From an uncultured Gemmatimonadaceae bacterium (GTDB taxonomy: Bacteria > Gemmatimonadota > Gemmatimonadetes > Gemmatimonadales > Gemmatimonadaceae), in the NCBI GenBank assembly GCA_963829055.1, contig CAWHHI010000020.1, forward strand, positions 864,001-928,000: a stretch of 64,000 nt of DNA, given 5' to 3'. Below the pieces are notes generated by a model, which saw only the letters and a program-made list of their open reading frames with translations, had not been told where the DNA came from and searched no databases. Every line of letters starts with the position of its first letter. The first letter of the stretch is position 1. Both the position numbers and the translations under genes were made by a program. Below, piece by piece: positions 348 through 62,203 of this stretch.

Positions 348-1503
348 CGCAGCGCCTCGCCGAGCGCGCCGACGAAACGATCGACACGCTCGGGCTGCGC
401 GTTGTAGCCCATCACGCCGACGCGCCACACCTTCCCCGCCAGCGCGCCAAGCCCGCCGCCCATCTCCACGCCCATGTCGAGCAGACGCGCGCGCACCTTC
501 GCCTCGTCCACGCCGTCGGGCACGTTGATCACGTTGATCGTCGGCGCCCGATGCGCTGGCGGGCGTGAACGAGCTCCAGGCCTAACGCGTCCAGCCCGCG
601 CACGAGCGTCTCGTGCGCCTGCTGGTGGCGCGCCCAGCGCGCCTCGAGGCCCTCCTCGAGAATCAGCGCGCAGCGCTTCGTGGAATCCGTAGATCGGACG
701 AGATCGGCGCCGTGTGATGAAACGCGCGCTTCTTCGTCGCCCCGGTCTCGCCCCAGTACTGAAAGAGCAGCTGAGAGGTCGAAATACCACGTGTGCGGCT
801 TCGTCTTGCGCGCCTTCACCGTCTCCATCGCGCGCGGGCTGATCGTGATCGGCCCGAGCCCCGGCGGCGCACCGAGGCACTTCTGCTGCAGCTGCCGGCG
901 GCGTCGACGCCTAGCGCGTCGATGTCGATCGGCATTCCGCCGAGGCTCGTGACGCAGTCCATCGCCACGAGCGCGCCGTGCTTCCGCGCCACCTCCACCA
1001 TCGGCGCGATCGGCTGACACGCGCCGGTGGTCGTCTCCGACATGCACGAACGCCACGAGCTTCGCCGGCTTCTCCTCGAGCAGCCGGTCCACCTCGGCCG
1101 GATCGACGATCTCACCCGGCGCCACTTCGACGACGCGCACGTCCGCGCCCGCGCGACGCGCCATCTCGGCGAGCCGCTGCCCGAAGTAGCCCGTGATGCA
1201 GACGACCGCGTCGTCGCCCGGCTCGAGCAGATTCATCATGATCGTCTCGAGCCCGCCGGACCCGGTGGCCGAGATCGGAAGCGTGTGATGGTTCTCGGTG
1301 CGGAAGACGTCGCGCAGCGCGCCCATCGTCTGATCCATGAGCTCGACGAAGTACGGATCGAGATGGCCGACGAGCCGCTTGCTCATCGCGGCGAGCACGC
1401 GCGGGTCCGGATTGCTCGGTCCCGGGCCCATGAGCAGACGCTCGGGCGGATCGAGCGGCGGTACGGTCGGCTTGCTCACGTCGGTCACGTACGTCTGTGT
1501 CAT
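344..1503 (-). CDS. Alanine/serine-glyoxylate aminotransferase (class V PLP), frameshifted
   Basis: RLLMGPGPSN, GHLDPYF, ETTTG, MDCVTSLGG, QKCLGAPPGL, GGGLGALAGKVWRVGVMG spread over several frames. Confidence 0.85.
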
Positions 1504-3037
1504 CCGAGCCCCAGCTTCTGTGCGAGTCCGATGCGCTGGAGCTTGCCCGTCGCGCCGACCGGGATCTCCGTGAGAATGAGAATCTTCTTCGGCACCTTGA
1601 AGTCGGCGAGCTTCACCTTCGCGAACTCGCGCAGCTCCTCGTCGCTCGCCGCGATGCCCTGCTTGAGCACGACCGCCGCCGCGACTTCTTCGCCGAGCAT
1701 GCGTGCGGCATCGCCGAACGTGACGCACTGATGCACGGCGGGATGCTCCATGATGATCTCGTCGACTTCACGCGGCGAGATCTTCTCGCCGCCGCGATTG
1801 ATGATCTCCTTGAGACGGCCCGTGATCGTGACGTAGCCGTCGGTCGTCCATCATGCCCTGATCGCCGGTGCGGAACCAGTCGCCGTAGAACGCGTCCGCG
1901 TTCGCCGTCGGGATTGTTCTCGTAGGCCGTCATCACGTTAGGCCCGCGGATCACGATCTCGCCGGTGACGCCCGGCGGCACGGTCTTGCCGCTCGTGTCG
2001 ACGACGCTGAATCTCCGGGCCGGCGGACGGCCCGACCGTGCCCGGCTTTCGCGCGCGCGGCGGGAGCGCGTTGCTCGCCATCTGATGCGCCGCCTCCGTC
2101 ATGCCGTAGGCCTCGATGACCGGAACGCCGAAGAGCGCTTCGATCTGCTGCGATCACCGTGAGCGGCAGCGACGACGACGACGATCGGATGAAGCGCAGC
2201 CGATGATTCTTGACGACTCTCCGCGTTGCCCGGCGCACGCAGCAGGATCGCCTGATGCATCGTCGGCACGCCGGTGTACCACGTCGGCTTCACCTCGTCC
2301 ATCCAGCCGAAGAACTTGAGCGCGTTGAAGCCGGTGGAGCAGTACACCTCGCCGCCGACCGAGAGCGGCGCGAGCAGCGCCGCGATCAGGCCGTGAATGT
2401 GGAACAGCGGCATGATCACGAGCCCGCGATCGTTCGCCGTGAGCGCCAGCGAGCCTGCGAATGTTCCGCGCCGACGCGCAGACGTTCCGGTGCGCGAGCG
2501 GCACGATCTTCGGACGCGACGTCGTCCCCGACGTGTGCAGCACGAGCGCGATGTCGTCGGGCGTCGCCGGCGCGCCGGCTGCCTGACGGCGCCGCGTCAC
2601 CGGCGAACGTCAGCGTGAACGTGCCCGCGCCTTGCTCGGGCTGCGGCGACGAGTCGCGCGATCGGCACGCCCAGCTTCGTCGCCACCTCGACCGCCGGCG
2701 AATCCTTCCCCTCGGCGACCACGAGCAGCTTCGCGCGCAGGTCGGTGAGGTAGAACTCGAACTCGTCGGCGCGATAGCCGGGGTTGAGCGGCGCGGCGGT
2801 CGCGGCCGATCCGATCGAGAGAAACGCGGCCGCCATCTCCGGTCCGTTGTCGAGCACGATGCCGACGCGGTCGCCCGGGCCGATGCCGCGCGACGCGAGC
2901 GACTGCGCTGACGTCCGCGACGAGCGTGCGCAGCGCGCGATAGCGTGAGCGGCGTGCCGCCGGGCGCGCCGAGCGCGGTCGCATCATCGGCGCCGCGCTC
3001 GAGCAGCGCGGGAATGGTCTTGCGGAAAGTCTGTCAT
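1500..3037 (-). CDS. Acyl-CoA synthetase, oxalate-CoA ligase-like, frameshifted
   Basis: [14 protein letters not shown]-binding motif, [50 protein letters not shown] overlaps with both neighbours. Confidence 0.85.
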
Positions 3038-4059
3038 GTGGCGGTGCTGTTGCGATCCGTAGGCTGCCGTTCTGGTCCACGAGCGTCTTCGCGAGCAGGC
3101 TCGCGCAGCGCGTACACGGCGTCGATGTGCGGCGTCGGCGTATCCGTCAGGCGTCCGAGCTCGACGACGGCGCCGACGAGCGCGTCGAGCTCGATCGGCT
3201 TCGCCCGCCTCGACGTCCTGCAGCATCGACGTCTTGTGCGCGCCCACCTTCTCCGCGCCCGCGATGCGCTTGTCGATGCCGACGCGAAAGCGTGATCGCC
3301 GAGCTTGTTCGCGATCGCTTCCGCCTCGCGCATCATCGCGATGCTCAGCTCGCGCGTCAGCGGGAACTGAAGCAGGTCGACGAGCGTCGCGTGCGTCAGC
3401 GCGCTGATCGGGTTGAAGCTCAGGTTGCCCCAGATCTTGAGCCAGATCTCGCCGCGGATGTCGCTCGTGACCGGCGCCTTGAAGCCGGCCTTGTTGAGCG
3501 CGCCGGAGATCGCCTGCACGCGCGGCGACGTCCGATCCGTCGAGCTCACCGAGCGTGAAGCGTCTTGCCTTCGACGACCTGGACGACGCCGGGTGCAATC
3601 GAGCGTCGCCGCCGGATACACGACCGAGCCGATCACGCGATCTGCGTCGATGAGCCGAGCGATCGATCCGTCCGGGTCGGCCGCGGCGACCGGTCGGCCC
3701 TCGAACTCCCCGCCATGCTTGTGGAAGTACCACCACGGGATGCCGTTCTGCATCGTGACGATGGTCGTGTCATCAGTGCAGCAGCGCGTGCAGGTCCTCG
3801 GCGATCGGCGCCACCTGATGCGCCTTCACCGTGAGCAGCACGGACGTCCTGCGGGCCCGCCTCGCGCATCGTTCGCACGGCGCGCGCGCCCGTCGACACG
3901 ATCTCGTCGCCGTCCTCGCCGATGACGCGCATGCCATTCTTCGCGAATCGCATCGAGGTTCGCGCCGCGCGCGATGAACGTGACGTCCTCACCCGCCGCC
4001 GACAGCCACCCGCCGAGATACCCGCCGATCGCACCTGCGCCAACGACCGCGATCTTCAT
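3034..4059 (-). CDS. Ketopantoate reductase family protein (PanE2 / oxalyl-CoA reductase-like), frameshifted
   Basis: MKIAVVGAGAIGG, MQNGIPWWYF, EIWLKIWGNLSFNPISALTHATL, GAHKTSMLQD, ELDALVGAVVELG. Confidence 0.85.
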
Positions 4060-61103: not shown

Positions 61104-61529
61104 GCAGGAGCCGGTAATCGTGACGGTGGCGTTGCCCGTTGCCACGGCTGCCGCCGTCGTCACGACGAGAGTGCTCGTCGTTCCCGTCGTGATGCTCGGA
61201 TTCATGGTCGCGGTAACCCCGGCGGGAACGCCTGTGACGGCGAGCGTCACGCTCCCGGCGAACCCGCCACTTCGAACGATGGCGATGTTCGCCTCGCCCG
61301 TGCCCCCTTGCAGGACCGGAACAGGCGCCTGCGCGGCAGTCAATGTGAACGTGCCGCCCGCGGCGGGTGTGGGCTCCGTCGCGCCGTCGCCACAGGCCTG
61401 AACACCAATGGCGACACCGAGCAGGAGGCCTAACGCGCGCGGCAGCGCGCATGCACGCTGGGTCCGAGTGCTCCCGACCGAGGCCTGCTGCGGAAGCACG
61501 AATGCGAATTGCGGCACTCGGGATCTCAT
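61104..61529 (-). pseudogene. Truncated lipoprotein gene (Ig-like/Thr-rich repeat)
   Basis: MRSRVP...VQACGDG lipobox, GGFAGSVTLAVTGVPAGVTA; no stop of its own, runs into the antisense of the VOC gene. Confidence 0.65.
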
Positions 61530-61681
61530 GTGTGTCTCCGTGAAGCTGGGTCCGTGAGACCGAAGCACCGGCCTCCCTGACGAGACACACGACGAACTGC
61601 CGCCAAACACGACATCACCGCCGAAACCGTGGCGCACCGTTAGGCACGCAAGCGTCCGCGACGCGTCCAGGCCAGGCGCGT

Positions 61682-62203
61682 CTAGCGCGGCGGGAAGATC
61701 ATGGCGACGCCGCGGTCCAGCTCCTCGCGGCTGAGCGGGCCGCGGTGGACCAGTTGCACGACGCCAGCCGAGTCGACGAAGACCGTCGTGGGCATCCCAC
61801 GGATGAGGTACGTCTCCCGCGAGCGGCCACGTTTGTCCAGCGCGATATCGAACGGGACAGAGAGTTGGTCGACGAACGTCTGCACGTGTTTCGTGCTCAT
61901 CTCCTGGTCGCGCTCGTTGACGCCGAGCACGTACAACCCGGCCGGACCGAGCTCCCGATGAACTCGGACCAGCTCGGGAAACTCGGTGAGGCACGGCGGG
62001 CACCACGTATTCCAGAACGTCACGACGACGGGGCGGCCGCGCAGCGTGGAGAGCCGCACATGGCCACCGGCGAGCGTCGGCAGGTCGATCTCCGGCGCCA
62101 GCGCGCCCTGCCTAACGGGTTGCGCCACGGCGGCAGGCGCCGCCAGTACCAGAGTCAGCACCGCGGACGCCGTGAGCCGGCGCCGGTGTCCAGCGGAATG
62201 CAC
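61682..62203 (-). CDS. TlpA-family redoxin
   Basis: FWNTWCPPC, GMPTTVFVD. Confidence 0.9.
   Translation of the reverse strand: MHSAGHRRRLTASAVLTLVLAAPAAVAQPVRQGALAPEIDLPTLAGGHVRLSTLRGRPVVVTFWNTWCPPCLTEFPELVRVHRELGPAGLYVLGVNERDQEMSTKHVQTFVDQLSVPFDIALDKRGRSRETYLIRGMPTTVFVDSAGVVQLVHRGPLSREELDRGVAMIFPPR

What the first reader, a model, noticed from the sequence alone, without database searches (positions are those of the whole stretch)
581..62117. Highly iterated non-palindromic heptamer CCTAACG/CGTTAGG (about 1 per kb) embedded in genes
Seen: by-eye count of about 64 exact copies, roughly 34 CCTAACG and 30 CGTTAGG (e.g. 581, 1936, 5588, 7135, 7666, 8097, 8894, 9835, 11073, 13233, 15499, 19948, 22804, 22854, 40241, 49554, 56500, 62111). 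A simple base-composition estimate at about 69% GC gives about 7. The one-mismatch variants I noticed are few (CCTAACA at 23217, 47643, 62420; GCTAACG at 45180, 46813). Most copies are in coding sequence, where they impose codons that look rare here: TTA in CCG/GCG-TTA-GGC (PLG/ALG) and CCT-AAC (PN), including the ABC Walker A at 49554. Established: Chi and KOPS are strand-polarised, HIP1 is palindromic, and DNA uptake sequences are unpolarised and lie in genes. Inference: an actively generated or maintained genome-wide signal such as an uptake sequence, a methylation/repair-driven motif, or a recombinase or nucleoid-protein site. I know of no description of it, but cannot search.
Basis: partly seen in the sequence, partly recalled or inferred. 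Interest (0 to 1): 0.9.

Follow-up and report, generated by a model that had tools for sequence, protein, structure and literature searches.

The report
Hyper-abundant DNA word matching integron sites
This soil bacterium has written the eight-letter word GCCTAACG about 5,000 times through its genes, against its own codon habits and even changing proteins, and the word is spelled like the conserved end of integron gene-cassette sites, but what reads it is still unknown.

Summary
The window holds 64 exact CCTAACG copies (34 on +, 30 on -) against 2.85 expected. The genome holds 6391.

- **The word.** It is really the octamer GCCTAACG, with G at -1 in 78% of copies.
- **Enrichment.** It is about 13-fold over a synonymous-codon shuffle: 3586 against 275±15.
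- **Placement.** It shows no strand polarity and ignores coding versus non-coding DNA. Close pairs under 200 bp are depleted.
- **Effect on genes.** It fills all six frames, supplies 227 of 649 TAA stop codons, and inflates the dipeptide Pro-Asn 1.39-fold.
- **Not an artefact.** Contigs from four unrelated public studies carry it.
- **Spread.** 24 of 151 genomes of the family hold at least 1000 copies. Soil Chthoniobacterales carry the dialect GCCTAACGA.
- **Integron link.** The word equals the R'' end of local integron attC sites.
- **No reader found.** Integron integrase and ComEC do not co-vary with the word. Vsr and ComP were not found in the 8 word-rich genomes searched.

My best reading (0.4) is an uptake-sequence-like transfer tag aimed at attC ends. 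This scan noted the same word at least eight times before, on other genomes.

The parts
581..587 (+). word copy GCCTAACGCG; in ORF 529-1728(-) read as GCG-TTA-GGC (A-L-G)
1936..1942 (-). word copy GCCTAACGTG; no listed ORF
5588..5594 (+). word copy GCCTAACGCC; no listed ORF
7135..7141 (+). word copy GCCTAACGGC; its TAA (7137-7139) closes ORF 5565-7139(+), an ORF without a Pfam match
7666..7672 (+). word copy; MacB-like ORF 7393-8232(-), GGC-GTT-AGG (G-V-R)
8097..8103 (-). word copy; ORF 7393-8232(-), CCT-AAC-GAG (P-N-E)
8894..8900 (+). word copy; MacB-like ORF 8455-9684(-), GCG-TTA-GGC (A-L-G)
9835..9841 (-). word copy GCCTAACGCA; no listed ORF
11073..11079 (-). word copy; DUF5700 ORF 10424-11668(+), TCG-TTA-GGC (S-L-G)
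13233..13239 (+). word copy; MacB/FtsX ORF 11795-14413(-), A-L-G; also present in one same-genus locus (L011)
13483..13489 (-). word copy with A at -1; ORF 11795-14413(-), CCT-AAC-GCG (P-N-A)
14985..14991 (+). word copy with C at -1; SDF symporter ORF 14943-16835(+), P-N-A
15499..15505 (-). word copy; ORF 14943-16835(+), CCG-TTA-GGC (P-L-G); five same-genus loci differ at 2-4 of 8 letters
16207..16213 (-). word copy; ORF 14943-16835(+), P-L-G; covered without substitution by run X2 record 17
16559..16565 (-). word copy; ORF 14943-16835(+), CGC-GTT-AGG (R-V-R); covered by X2 record 17
16831..16837 (+). word copy whose TAA (16833-16835) is the stop codon of the symporter ORF 14943-16835; covered by X2 record 17
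16936..16942 (+). word copy GCCTAACGCG; no listed ORF
18841..18847 (+). word copy just outside the end of ORF 18876-20594(-)
19309..19315 (+). word copy with A at -1; beta-lactamase-fold ORF 18876-20594(-), S-L-G; absent from five same-genus loci (2-4 letters differ)
19948..19954 (+). word copy; ORF 18876-20594(-), P-L-G; kept in 4 of 5 same-genus loci
20762..20768 (+). word copy; no listed ORF
22019..22025 (+). word copy; no listed ORF
22804..22810 (-). word copy; ORF 22188-23735(+), CCG-TTA-GGC; the closest relative's locus (L001, 90% identical) reads CCCTCGGC there, i.e. the same peptide in preferred codons
22854..22860 (+). word copy; ORF 22188-23735(+), P-N-V; kept in 4 of 5 aligned loci
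23864..23870 (+). word copy; no listed ORF
25600..25606 (+). word copy with C at -1; FAD-oxidase ORF 25086-26441(-), S-L-G
26463..26469 (+). word copy; no listed ORF
26548..26554 (-). word copy with A at -1; no listed ORF
26948..26954 (-). word copy; no listed ORF
27617..27623 (-). word copy; ORF 26967-27863(-), P-N-D
29677..29683 (+). word copy; no listed ORF
31372..31378 (-). word copy with A at -1; beta-lactamase ORF 30583-31581(-), AAC-CTA-ACG (N-L-T)
32205..32211 (-). word copy; ORF 31987-33204(-), P-N-A
35057..35063 (+). word copy; oxidoreductase ORF 34762-36123(-), T-L-G
36125..36131 (-). word copy; no listed ORF
36702..36708 (-). word copy with A at -1; GMC oxidoreductase ORF 36691-38649(-), P-N-A
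37989..37995 (-). word copy; ORF 36691-38649(-), P-N-D
38431..38437 (+). word copy; ORF 36691-38649(-), A-V-R
40241..40247 (-). word copy; Ser/Thr kinase ORF 39987-41429(+), R-V-R
40772..40778 (+). word copy; ORF 39987-41429(+), G-L-T
41424..41430 (-). word copy with C at -1; its TAG (41427-41429) closes the kinase ORF 39987-41429(+)
42307..42313 (-). word copy; its TAG (42310-42312) closes ORF 41134-42312(+)
42970..42976 (+). word copy; GDSL lipase ORF 42456-43091(-), T-L-G
44369..44375 (+). word copy with A at -1; kinase ORF 43799-45802(-), H-V-R
44961..44967 (+). word copy; ORF 43799-45802(-), A-L-G
45894..45900 (+). word copy; ECF sigma ORF 45809-46504(-), T-L-G
47321..47327 (+). word copy with A at -1; ORF 47057-47509(+), P-N-D
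48207..48213 (+). word copy; ABC-2 permease ORF 47534-48475(-), P-L-G
48416..48422 (+). word copy; ORF 47534-48475(-), F-V-R
48898..48904 (-). word copy; ABC ATPase ORF 48754-49761(-), R-L-T
51499..51505 (-). word copy; TonB-receptor ORF 51423-52913(+), P-L-G
53125..53131 (+). word copy with A at -1; no listed ORF
53755..53761 (-). word copy; SusD-like ORF 53514-54422(+), A-L-G
54452..54458 (+). word copy; no listed ORF
55818..55824 (+). word copy; KaiC-like ORF 54675-56255(+), P-N-E
56500..56506 (-). word copy; histidine kinase ORF 56403-57458(+), A-L-G
57453..57459 (-). word copy; its TAG (57456-57458) is the stop codon of the histidine kinase ORF 56403-57458
57815..57821 (-). word copy; sulfatase ORF 57464-58843(-), G-L-T
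58387..58393 (-). word copy; ORF 57464-58843(-), P-N-A
61098..61104 (-). word copy; its TAG (61101-61103) is the stop codon of ORF 59919-61103(+)
61429..61435 (+). word copy; no listed ORF
61638..61644 (-). word copy; no listed ORF
62111..62117 (+). word copy; AhpC/TSA ORF 61682-62203(-), P-V-R

Best explanation
GCCTAACG is a lineage-specific genome word kept at about one copy per kilobase by a transmission bias that acts on DNA fragments. It is not made by a per-site mutation bias, and individual copies are not selected for a function.

**Proposed mechanism (inferred, not shown).** During DNA exchange between cells of the same kind, fragments that carry the word are taken up or recombined more often than fragments without it. 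This is how the uptake sequences of Pasteurellaceae and Neisseriaceae work. Word-creating changes therefore spread through ordinary genes wherever the protein tolerates them.

**Proposed origin of the specificity (inferred).** The word equals the conserved R'' end of integron attC sites.

**What is shown.** The enrichment, its independence of strand and coding status, the depletion of close pairs, the effect on codons, stop codons and proteins, the fast turnover between species, the dialects, and the identity with attC ends.

**What is not shown.**
For: **1. Size and sharpness.**
- 6391 copies against 353, 249 and 720 expected under order-1, -2 and -3 Markov models. It is the top 7-mer under orders 1 and 2.
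- 3586 against 275±15 under synonymous shuffling.

**2. No polarity.** Each contig carries about equal numbers on the two strands. The correlation with GC skew is -0.17.

**3. Indifferent to coding.** Word sites and random positions have nearly the same codon-periodicity distribution.

**4. Sites interact.** Gaps under 25, 50-100 and 150-200 bp occur at 0.22, 0.34 and 0.61 of the exponential expectation. Gaps of 300-1500 bp occur at 1.1-1.3. The same is seen in the other phylum: 0.32 under 50 bp and 0.63 at 50-100 bp. A fragment-level benefit that saturates after one copy predicts this. A per-site bias does not.

**5. Cost-dependent occupancy.** The word encodes 61% of P-N-[GAVDE], 29% of [APST]-L-G, 8.5% of x-L-T and 4.4% of x-V-R tripeptides.

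**6. Proteins are changed.**
- The dipeptide PN is 1.39 times its expectation.
- In 59 sites aligned to a word-poor relative, the encoded tripeptide is the same in only 13. P-N often stands where the relative has P-T, P-A, P-D or P-S.
- Uptake sequences roughly double their encoded tripeptides (abstract of PMC2817400).

**7. Fast turnover.** Only 5 of 18 aligned window sites are kept in any same-genus locus. Lost sites differ at 2-4 of 8 letters at 85-90% overall identity.

**8. Dialects.** The ninth base is A in 68-90% of copies in four Chthoniobacterales genomes. It is A in 24-31% in Gemmatimonadaceae.

**9. Independent origins.** Among 451 best protein pairs from 1.6 Mb of a Chthoniobacterales genome, none reaches 80% identity. 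Two phyla therefore reached the same word without evident recent gene sharing, which points to a common pre-existing template, attC.

**10. Identity with attC ends.**
- 26 attC sites of G021:C95 start with GCCTAACG.
- 10 attC sites of this genome read (G/A)(C/T)CTAACGC.
- 9 attC- or attI-like ends in Chthoniobacterales read xxCTAACGAGAA, matching that phylum's dialect.

**11. Competence gene present.** ComEC is found in all 31 relatives searched.
Against: - No uptake, transformation or transfer experiment exists for these organisms, and none can be run here.
- ComEC is in word-poor relatives too (31 of 31), so it does not explain who has the word.
- The only known uptake-sequence receptor family, ComP_DUS, was not found in 0 of 8 word-rich genomes searched.
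- One-mismatch variants are not enriched. The window has 102 against about 116 expected. Genome-wide, most variants sit at 0.2-1.6 of the order-1 expectation. The exceptions are CCTAACA at 3.95 and CATAACG at 2.28. Known uptake sequences show graded enrichment of mismatched forms (PMC1939737, passages).
- The match between the ninth base and the local attC is strong only in Chthoniobacterales. In this genome, C is 41% against a 33% background.
- The 'cassette fishing' origin is my inference and rests on the spelling alone.
Confidence: 0.4

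Rival explanations
1. The word is read by the integron integrase or a related tyrosine recombinase. The genomic copies would be R-box or attI-core-like double-stranded sites (attG-type landing pads, or sites of recombinase-mediated exchange), so the chromosome is studded with places where cassettes or segments can be recombined.
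For: - The word equals the R'' box plus one base of attC in this genome, in its relatives and in the second phylum.
- This genome has a full-length IntI at G000 C20:208011-208985, scoring 265.7 bits against a cut-off of 265. At least five attC sites lie beside it.
- Integrases insert cassettes at double-stranded genomic sites with a GWT core (bioRxiv 10.1101/2022.09.11.507474, passages). The word contains GTT.
- The four word-rich or intermediate genomes in which no IntI was found (G004, G010, G033, G035) have the lowest densities, 163-397 per Mb. Where IntI or pieces of it were found, densities are 352-1247 per Mb, except G030 at 119. These genomes are related and incomplete, so this is a weak lead.
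Against: - IntI scores over the cut-off in many word-poor genomes. It is found in 18 of 31 relatives of both kinds. G129 has three matches, two of them over the cut-off, but only 66 word copies.
- Genomic copies lack attC structure: 0 of 11 examined have an inverse core or a matching hairpin.
- Homology breakpoints between this window and same-genus loci do not sit at the word. Only 1 of 63 block ends lies within 30 bp, against 6.7% for random positions.
- Recombinase sites inside genes should be harmful.
- I know of no way for binding or cleavage by a recombinase to drive a site to thousands of copies.
- G000 IntI is no closer to Chthoniobacterales IntI (40-42% identity) than to those of word-poor relatives (39-45%).
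Confidence: 0.2
2. The word is the binding or loading site of an abundant chromosomal protein, or has another cellular role, and is kept by selection for roughly regular spacing. This would resemble what has been proposed for HIP1 in cyanobacteria.
For: - Close pairs are depleted and gaps of 300-1500 bp are in excess.
- Gaps of 3-10 kb are fewer than expected, at 0.75-0.77.
- HIP1 is an octamer of similar abundance. Its distribution is called quasi-periodic in the start of the abstract of PMC13756078. The start of the abstract of PMC5861425 gives its over-representation as 15- to 300-fold (both from the search listing).
Against: - Selection on any one of about 6000 copies would be tiny, yet the word overrides codon choice and amino acids.
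- Positions turn over fast between species.
- Density varies about 60-fold within one genus: G071 and G171 hold about 4000 copies, G129 holds 66. That is odd for a core chromosomal function.
- The coefficient of variation of the spacing is 1.05, so the spacing is not regular overall.
- No candidate protein is known.
Confidence: 0.15
3. The word is made by methylation plus biased very-short-patch mismatch repair, or by another context-specific mutation or repair bias.
For:
- Transition neighbours that keep the CTAAC core are rare: CTTAACG 40, CCTAATG 33, TCTAACG 77.
- HIP1 is linked to orphan methyltransferases (abstract start of PMC4390886 in the search listing).
Against: - Vsr was not found in 0 of 8 word-rich genomes searched. 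It is present in 3 word-poor ones.
- A per-site process cannot produce the depletion of close pairs.
- Gains need changes at several positions, including transversions.
- A 13- to 25-fold excess is far beyond what I recall for Vsr-driven biases. That figure is recalled and comes from no call.
- Methylation at the word could not be examined, because the runs were held only as contigs.
Confidence: 0.05
4. The word is a Chi-, KOPS- or SRS-like polar guide sequence for a repair nuclease or DNA translocase.
For: It is an octamer, over-represented and found inside genes, like those motifs.
Against: - There is no replichore polarity. Contigs hold about equal counts on both strands, and 50-kb bins are mixed.
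- Across the GC-skew switch of contig C16 the counts are 159:201 and 234:230.
- G031 is also unpolarised over 1.6 Mb.
- Apparent one-strand runs in tool listings are a listing effect. I checked this on this genome.
Confidence: 0.03
5. The word is an assembly or base-calling artefact.
For: The assembly is error-prone.
- Several genes are split into two ORFs.
- All four runs laid insert a G behind 29496.
Against: - Contigs of four runs from four studies (2017-2024) cover the stretch. Run X2 record 17 spans three copies with 0 substitutions. None of the 40 listed substitutions falls in a copy, though 800 more were not shown.
- Fragmented same-genus assemblies and 23 further genomes of the family hold over 1000 copies each.
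- Codons imposed by the word match the residues of a word-poor relative. L stands at CTA or TTA, and R at AGG.
Confidence: 0.01

Closest known systems
DNA uptake sequences: USS of Pasteurellaceae and DUS of Neisseriaceae
   Same: - Short non-palindromic word at about one per kb.
- Both strands used equally, with no replication polarity.
- Found in genes and between them.
- Alters peptide frequencies.
- Sits at poorly conserved residues.
- Has lineage dialects.
- Close pairs are depleted. Even spacing of USS is attributed to Karlin et al. in PMC1939737 (passages).
   Different: - Only 8 specified letters.
- One-mismatch forms are not enriched.
- No flanking AT tracts and no paired terminator copies.
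- Occurs in two unrelated soil phyla.
- No uptake bias has been shown.
- No ComP-type receptor was found.
- Spelled like an integron recombination site.
HIP1 (GCGATCGC) of cyanobacteria
   Same: - An octamer.
- About one copy per gene.
- Strongly over-represented inside coding DNA.
- Function long unknown, and recently tied to transformation or horizontal transfer (titles and abstract starts in the search listing).
   Different: - HIP1 is a palindrome and is read by two orphan methyltransferases.
- This word is not a palindrome.
- No methyltransferase link was tested or found here.
Integron attC R'' / R' boxes (RYYYAAC / GTTRRRY), attI core and attG sites
   Same: - Letter-for-letter identity with the R'' end of attC in this genome, its relatives and Chthoniobacterales.
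- The 3' end of the cassette-PCR primer GCSGCTKANCTCVRRCGTTAGSC is the word's complement (PMC2669170, passage).
   Different: - Genomic copies are lone half-sites inside ordinary genes.
- They have no L boxes, no hairpin and no array structure.
- They do not track the integrase.
Chi, KOPS and SRS polar octamers
   Same: Over-represented octamers embedded in genes.
   Different: Those are co-oriented with replication and 5-10 times rarer (recalled). This word is unpolarised.

Membership tests
DNA uptake sequence (USS/DUS) | Hundreds to thousands of copies, about one per kb, equal on both strands | tested here: met
   6391 copies at 0.82 per kb. Per-contig strand counts are about equal.
DNA uptake sequence (USS/DUS) | Competent cells prefer DNA that carries the word | not testable with these tools
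   Needs an uptake or transformation assay.
DNA uptake sequence (USS/DUS) | DNA uptake machinery is encoded | tested here: inconclusive
   ComEC (PF03772) is present in 31 of 31 relatives, word-rich and word-poor alike.
DNA uptake sequence (USS/DUS) | Known sequence-specific receptor (ComP_DUS, PF16732) | tested here: not met
   No match in G000-G006 or G014. Weak matches occur in 4 word-poor genomes only.
DNA uptake sequence (USS/DUS) | Graded over-representation of mismatched forms | tested here: not met
   The window has 102 one-mismatch sites against about 116 expected. Genome-wide ratios are mostly 0.2-1.6.
DNA uptake sequence (USS/DUS) | Encoded peptides are inflated; copies sit at poorly conserved residues | tested here: met
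   PN is at 1.39 times expectation. Only 13 of 59 encoded tripeptides are conserved against G007.
DNA uptake sequence (USS/DUS) | Dialects between lineages | tested here: met
   The ninth base is A in 68-90% of copies in Chthoniobacterales and 24-31% in Gemmatimonadaceae.
HIP1-type iterated palindrome | Palindromic word | tested here: not met
   GCCTAACG is not its own reverse complement.
HIP1-type iterated palindrome | Cognate orphan methyltransferases | not tested
   No methyltransferase search or modification data.
Integron attC site | R''-L''...L'-R' imperfect inverted repeat of 55-140 bp | tested here: not met
   0 of 11 genomic copies beside intI have an inverse core or matching fold. 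No flank is conserved beyond -1. True attC sites do exist elsewhere in the genome: 10 were found.
Integron attC site | Tracks integron integrase | tested here: not met
   IntI scores over the cut-off in 18 of 31 relatives regardless of word count. G129 has 2 IntI matches over the cut-off and 66 copies.
Chi / KOPS / SRS | Co-orientation with replication | tested here: not met
   50-kb bins are mixed. The correlation with GC skew is -0.17. Counts across the C16 skew switch are 159:201 and 234:230.
VSP-repair-driven word | Vsr endonuclease is encoded | tested here: not met
   PF03852 was not found in G000-G006 or G014 (completeness 77-92%). It is present in G007, G012 and G028.

The most novel reading that the evidence does not exclude
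Two unrelated groups of soil bacteria, Gemmatimonadaceae and Chthoniobacterales, have each turned the universal end of integron cassette sites into a genome-wide self tag. A DNA-capture or recombination machinery tuned to attC ends fishes free gene cassettes from the environment. As a side effect it drives the same eight letters into thousands of ordinary genes. This would couple natural DNA uptake to the integron system and would be the first uptake-type tag outside Proteobacteria.
Probability: 0.2. Interest if true: 0.9.

Novelty: new variant of a known kind. Interest (0 to 1): 0.8.

Why it matters
- **A third kind of hyper-abundant genome word.** Only two kinds are well studied: uptake sequences and HIP1. 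A third in two abundant but little-cultured soil phyla would broaden the phenomenon, and its spelling gives a handle on mechanism.
- **A link between integrons and DNA capture.** It also touches the open question of how cassettes and attC sites spread.
- **Cassette PCR.** A widely used cassette-PCR primer ends in the word's complement (PMC2669170). In soils, only 19-24% of HS287/HS286 amplicons keep an attC (PMC9176274). Genomes with thousands of word copies may add to that off-target load. This last point is my inference.
- **Assembly quality control.** Word density is a sharp lineage signature. It could flag foreign or chimeric stretches in metagenome bins, such as the word-free blocks at contig ends here.
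- **A natural experiment.** Density differs 60-fold within one genus (G071 and G171 against G129). Comparing those genomes could find the responsible gene.

Tried and rejected
1. **Apparent strand polarity.** Some family members (G062, G070, G128, G170, G095) showed long one-strand runs in the place lists. This is a listing effect. A 10-mer sample of G062 shows minus-strand copies in the same stretch. The same tool lists only plus copies for contig C3 of this genome, where my count is 252:246. I make no polarity claim for other genomes. The same caution applies to runs seen for G034.
2. **Search for a recently shared gene between phyla.** I had 1.6 Mb of G031, about 42% of that genome. The 451 best pairs have a median identity of 42% and a maximum of 78.6%, and the top of the list lies in what look like conserved housekeeping regions. 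No candidate emerged, and the rest of the genome was not seen.
3. **Viral-contig scan.** Most multi-copy loci are one-strand runs at 300-400 bp spacing, as in cassette arrays. I could not confirm that viruses carry the word in the genomic manner.
4. **One-strand runs beside intI.** The run right of G000 intI (209.8-218.2 kb) is not a cassette array. The run on the left partly is.
5. **Homology breakpoints.** They do not sit at the word. There are only about 17 distinct boundaries, and they mostly follow gene ends.
6. **Codon-score gene finder.** It covered only 68% of the genome and missed real genes, probably because of frameshift errors. I used the conservative GC3 ORF set and local periodicity instead.
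7. **First blastp run.** I repeated it on filtered ORFs.
8. **Word-free block C6:20001-32000.** 2 of 17 ORFs had Pfam matches: a peptide deformylase and an ABC permease N-terminus. Its origin is unresolved.
9. **Sequencing runs.** They were held only as contigs, so base modification and read-level variation could not be examined.
10. **Literature.** I found no paper on this word.
    - 478 hits, and the 20 listed were primers or oligos.
    - 25 hits, and the 10 listed were unrelated.
    - the listing was unrelated.

Full report
**Observation.** Dinucleotide-preserving shuffles give 2.85 (sd 1.54, largest 7). One-mismatch forms are not enriched: 102 against about 116 expected.

The window is G000:C20:864001-928000 of a 7.78-Mb, 20-contig, 66.7% GC genome. 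That genome holds 6391 copies (0.82 per kb), in about equal numbers on the two strands of every contig.

**What the unit is.** Aligning all copies shows G at -1 in 78% and A in 13%. Only weak preferences follow: position +7 is C 41%, A 28%, G 13%. The flanks are otherwise unconserved. The unit is therefore the octamer GCCTAACG. It occurs 5004 times and is not part of a longer repeat.

72% of all CTAA tetramers in the genome lie inside the word (6391 of 8933). Under Markov models of order 1, 2 and 3 the expectations are 353, 249 and 720. The word is the most deviant 7-mer of the genome under orders 1 and 2, and second to GCCTAAC under order 3. A maximal-order model does not flag it, because its own sub-words carry the excess.

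**Relation to genes.** I used a conservative set of 5140 ORFs (GC3 above 0.78, 4.75 Mb). The word occurs 3586 times in it. Shuffling synonymous codons within each gene gives 275±15 (10 shuffles).

| Reading frame | Copies |
|---|---|
| CCT-AAC-G | 1057 |
| nnC-CTA-ACG | 663 |
| nCG-TTA-GGn | 1387 |
| nnC-GTT-AGG | 479 |

All four stop-free frames are used. 60% of all TTA codons (1387 of 2307) belong to the word.

The two remaining frames are used at gene ends. 227 of 649 TAA stops and 165 of 1502 TAG stops of that ORF set lie inside the word. In the window this is so for ORFs ending at 16835, 41429, 42312, 57458 and 61103.

Occupancy follows cost.

| Tripeptide | Share written with the word |
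|---|---|
| P-N-[GAVDE] | 61% |
| [APST]-L-G | 29% |
| x-L-T | 8.5% |
| x-V-R | 4.4% |

The dipeptide P-N is 1.39 times its expectation, 2975 against 2143. Word sites and random positions have nearly the same local codon periodicity. For example, 20.1% against 17.2% fall below a score of 0.1. The word therefore ignores the coding/non-coding boundary. In the window, 42 of 64 copies lie in the ORFs I listed. Those ORFs are ordinary genes: transporters, beta-lactamase-fold enzymes, ECF sigma/kinase pairs, a KaiC-like ATPase and a sulfatase.

**Spacing and polarity.** Neighbouring copies avoid each other at short range.

| Gap length | Observed / exponential expectation |
|---|---|
| under 25 bp | 0.22 |
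| 25-50 bp | 0.28 |
| 50-100 bp | 0.34 |
| 100-150 bp | 0.49 |
| 150-200 bp | 0.61 |
| 300-1500 bp | 1.1-1.3 |
| 3-10 kb | about 0.75 |

There is no excess of inverted or direct close pairs. Heterogeneous density would produce the opposite pattern, so the depletion is real.

Polarity is absent. 50-kb bins are mixed, and the correlation with GC skew is -0.17. Across the skew switch in contig C16 the counts are 159:201 and 234:230. Same-orientation neighbours are only slightly in excess, 3293 against 3078.

**Not an artefact.** The assembly has errors. Several genes are split into two ORFs: ApbA, MacB and a TonB receptor. All four runs laid insert a G behind 29496. That made a base-calling artefact worth testing, and three lines of evidence reject it.
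- The stretch 14001-24000 is held by 20 runs of 16 studies dated 2017-2025.
- Contigs of four runs from four studies cover 12001-32000. Record 17 of X2 spans 16062-16863 with no substitution and three word copies. None of the 40 listed substitutions lies in a copy, though 800 more were not shown.
- Same-genus genomes in 260-1170 contigs hold 2501-5112 copies.

In alignments to a word-poor relative, the residues at CTA/TTA and AGG codons are L and R there too. This excludes single-letter miscalls.

**Evolution.** I compared 70 ORF pairs with the word-poor relative G007 (27,043 aligned residues, mean identity 54%; some G000 ORFs were hit more than once). G000 has 59 word sites and G007 none. The encoded tripeptide is identical in 13 of 59. 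P-N in G000 often faces P-T, P-A, P-D or P-S. The word has therefore changed proteins at tolerant places.

Against the word-rich G014, from another genus, 8 of 40 G000 sites carry the word at the same place, mostly at conserved peptides.

Within the genus, 5 of 18 aligned window sites keep the full octamer in at least one other genome. Sites that differ do so at 2-4 of 8 letters, although the alignments are 85-90% identical. At 22804, for example, CGTTAGGC faces CCCTCGGC. That is the same peptide in preferred codons. This looks like a two-state system: either the full word, or rapid reversion to normal codons.

**Spread.** I scanned 151 genomes (77 genera) drawn from the same family.

| Copies of the octamer | Genomes |
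|---|---|
| 1000 or more | 24 (in 13 genera) |
| 200-999 | 28 |
| fewer than 200 | 99 |

Genomes in the lowest class are usually far below the reversed-word control. These tallies include the unpublished genomes G013, G056, G057 and G155.

Density differs greatly within genera: g56 holds 3896 and 4141 against 66, and g47 holds 4469 against 895.

Of these, 47 were from Gemmatimonadota, 49 from Verrucomicrobiota (mostly Chthoniobacterales) and 34 were scattered singletons. Loci titled Gemmatimonadaceae or Gemmatimonas match G000 at up to 87% identity, so G000 most likely belongs to that family.

Four Chthoniobacterales genomes hold 947-2918 copies in 3.7-4.2 Mb, against 250-282 for the control. 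In 1.6 Mb of one of them (G031) the word is unpolarised, and gaps under 50 and 50-100 bp are at 0.32 and 0.63 of expectation.

That phylum has a dialect. The ninth base is A in 82% (G031), 88%, 68% and 90% of copies, against 24-31% in three Gemmatimonadaceae genomes.

**The integron link.** Earlier notes of this scan said the word matches the integron core. I tested that on sequence.

- **Word-poor relatives.** Their few copies are concentrated in cassette arrays. G021:C95 has 26 sites of the form GCCTAACGgat..GCGCtTAAGC...GCTTcaaGCGCttGTTAGGC at cassette spacing. Arrays lie beside intI in G021:C80 and G019:C26.
- **This genome.** G000 has a full-length IntI at C20:208011-208985 (265.7 bits, cut-off 265). 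It has ten attC sites reading (G/A)(C/T)CTAACGC..AAGTT..CTGC....CAACG.ACGTTAG... Five of them lie beside intI.
- **Chthoniobacterales.** attC and intI-proximal sites read xxCTAACGAGAA in 9 of 9 cases. That matches the phylum's ninth-base A.

The genome-wide word is thus the R'' box plus the next base of the local attC. The classical cassette-PCR primer GCSGCTKANCTCVRRCGTTAGSC ends in its complement (PMC2669170, passage).

Genomic copies themselves are not attC sites. They have no inverse core, no matching fold (0 of 11) and no conserved flanks.

- **Integron integrase.** It scores over its cut-off in 18 of 31 relatives irrespective of word count. It is found in word-poor G129, with two matches over the cut-off and a third below it. 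It was not found in word-rich G004, G033 and G035, or in the intermediate G010. It is neither sufficient nor demonstrably necessary. The genomes without it have the lowest densities among word-bearing genomes, which is a weak lead.
- **G000 IntI.** It is 56-63% identical to two same-genus copies and 39-45% to all others, including Chthoniobacterales at 40-42%.
- **ComEC.** It is in 31 of 31 relatives.
- **Vsr.** It is in 0 of 8 word-rich genomes searched.
- **ComP_DUS.** It is in none of them.
- **Recent cross-phylum gene sharing.** Of 451 best protein pairs between 1.6 Mb of G031 and G000, none reaches 80% identity. No recently shared gene was seen in the 42% of that genome I could fetch.
- **Homology block ends.** Those between the window and same-genus loci do not coincide with the word (1 of 63 within 30 bp).

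**Interpretation.** The depletion of close pairs, the indifference to strand and coding status, the cost-dependent occupancy, the altered proteome, the fast turnover and the dialects are what a fragment-level transmission bias produces. They match uptake sequences point by point: peptide doubling and placement at poorly conserved residues (PMC2817400, abstract), and lack of orientation bias with even spacing (PMC1939737, passages).

They do not fit a per-site repair bias, and no Vsr was found. They do not fit a polar guide sequence either.

The spelling, shared by two phyla without sign of recent gene exchange and carrying each phylum's own attC-like ninth base, points to the integron attC end as the template of the specificity. 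I therefore favour (0.4) an uptake- or transfer-type tag whose reader recognises attC ends.

The main weaknesses are three. There is no functional evidence. The sharp specificity, without enriched near-matches, is unlike USS and DUS. No gene tracks the word.

A direct role of an integrase-like recombinase (0.2) and a HIP1-like cellular role (0.15) remain open.

**Novelty.** My searches of the held literature found no description of this word. The scan itself noted it at least eight times before on other genomes. My results agree with those notes and add:
- the read-level check;
- the spacing;
- the stop-codon and proteome effects;
- the family-wide gradient;
- the attC sequences;
- the dialect concordance;
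- the negative co-distribution tests.

Noticed in passing
window 30380-30600: A copy of a short repeat family with inverted ends TGTCATTCCGAGCG...CGCTCGGAATGACA. It gives 415 BLAST hits in this genome, many matches in same-genus genomes, and a depth spike in all four runs. It also explains the k-mers TCGGAATGA and TGTCATCC that top the maximal-order Markov lists.
   Followed up: partly
window 3034-4446, 7393-9684, 50063-52913; position 29496: Genes are split into two ORFs (ApbA N and C domains, MacB-like, TonB receptor). All four laid runs insert a G behind 29496. The assembly therefore carries frameshift errors, which may also explain its 85.86% completeness.
   Followed up: partly
G000 C20:202789-208985 (outside the window); also C20:119251, 119424, 173525, 183882 and C9:93485: A chromosomal integron. 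A divergent IntI sits just at the family cut-off, with at least five attC sites on the side of its 3' end. Lone attC sites are scattered up to 90 kb away and on another contig.
   Followed up: partly
G000 C6:5440-55038, C6:591808-623330, C11:0-44055: Blocks of 32-50 kb without a single word copy, all at contig ends. Two have higher GC (0.70 and 0.73). They may be foreign or chimeric DNA. A 12-kb sample gave Pfam matches for only 2 of 17 ORFs.
   Followed up: partly
window 39412-41429 and 43799-46504: Two ECF sigma factor genes each sit beside a Ser/Thr protein kinase gene. The second kinase ORF overlaps an ORF of TPR repeats.
   Followed up: no
window 18876-33204: A cluster of four beta-lactamase-fold genes (18876-20594, 22188-23735, 30583-31581, 31987-33204) among oxidoreductases.
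   Followed up: no
L156 (Lentisphaera marina record) and L186 (Myxococcales MAG): The word recurs every 35 bp (10 copies) and every 52 bp (7 copies). These are tandem repeats that happen to contain it, unrelated to the genome-wide pattern.
   Followed up: no
Viral-contig loci L313, L314, L334, L336, L360, L371, L377: Contigs filed as viral carry 7-10 word copies on one strand at 300-400 bp spacing. This looks like integron cassette arrays inside records classed as viruses.
   Followed up: no
The genome search place lists: When a list is cut inside a large contig, the tool shows only plus-strand matches for that contig. This can be mistaken for strand polarity. I checked it against my own counts for G000:C3.
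   Followed up: yes
G031:C2:1379290-1379402: Two word copies form the ends of a near-perfect 113-bp hairpin (GCCTAACGATAATG...CATTATCGTTAGGC). It is terminator-like or attC-like, and was not examined further.
   Followed up: no
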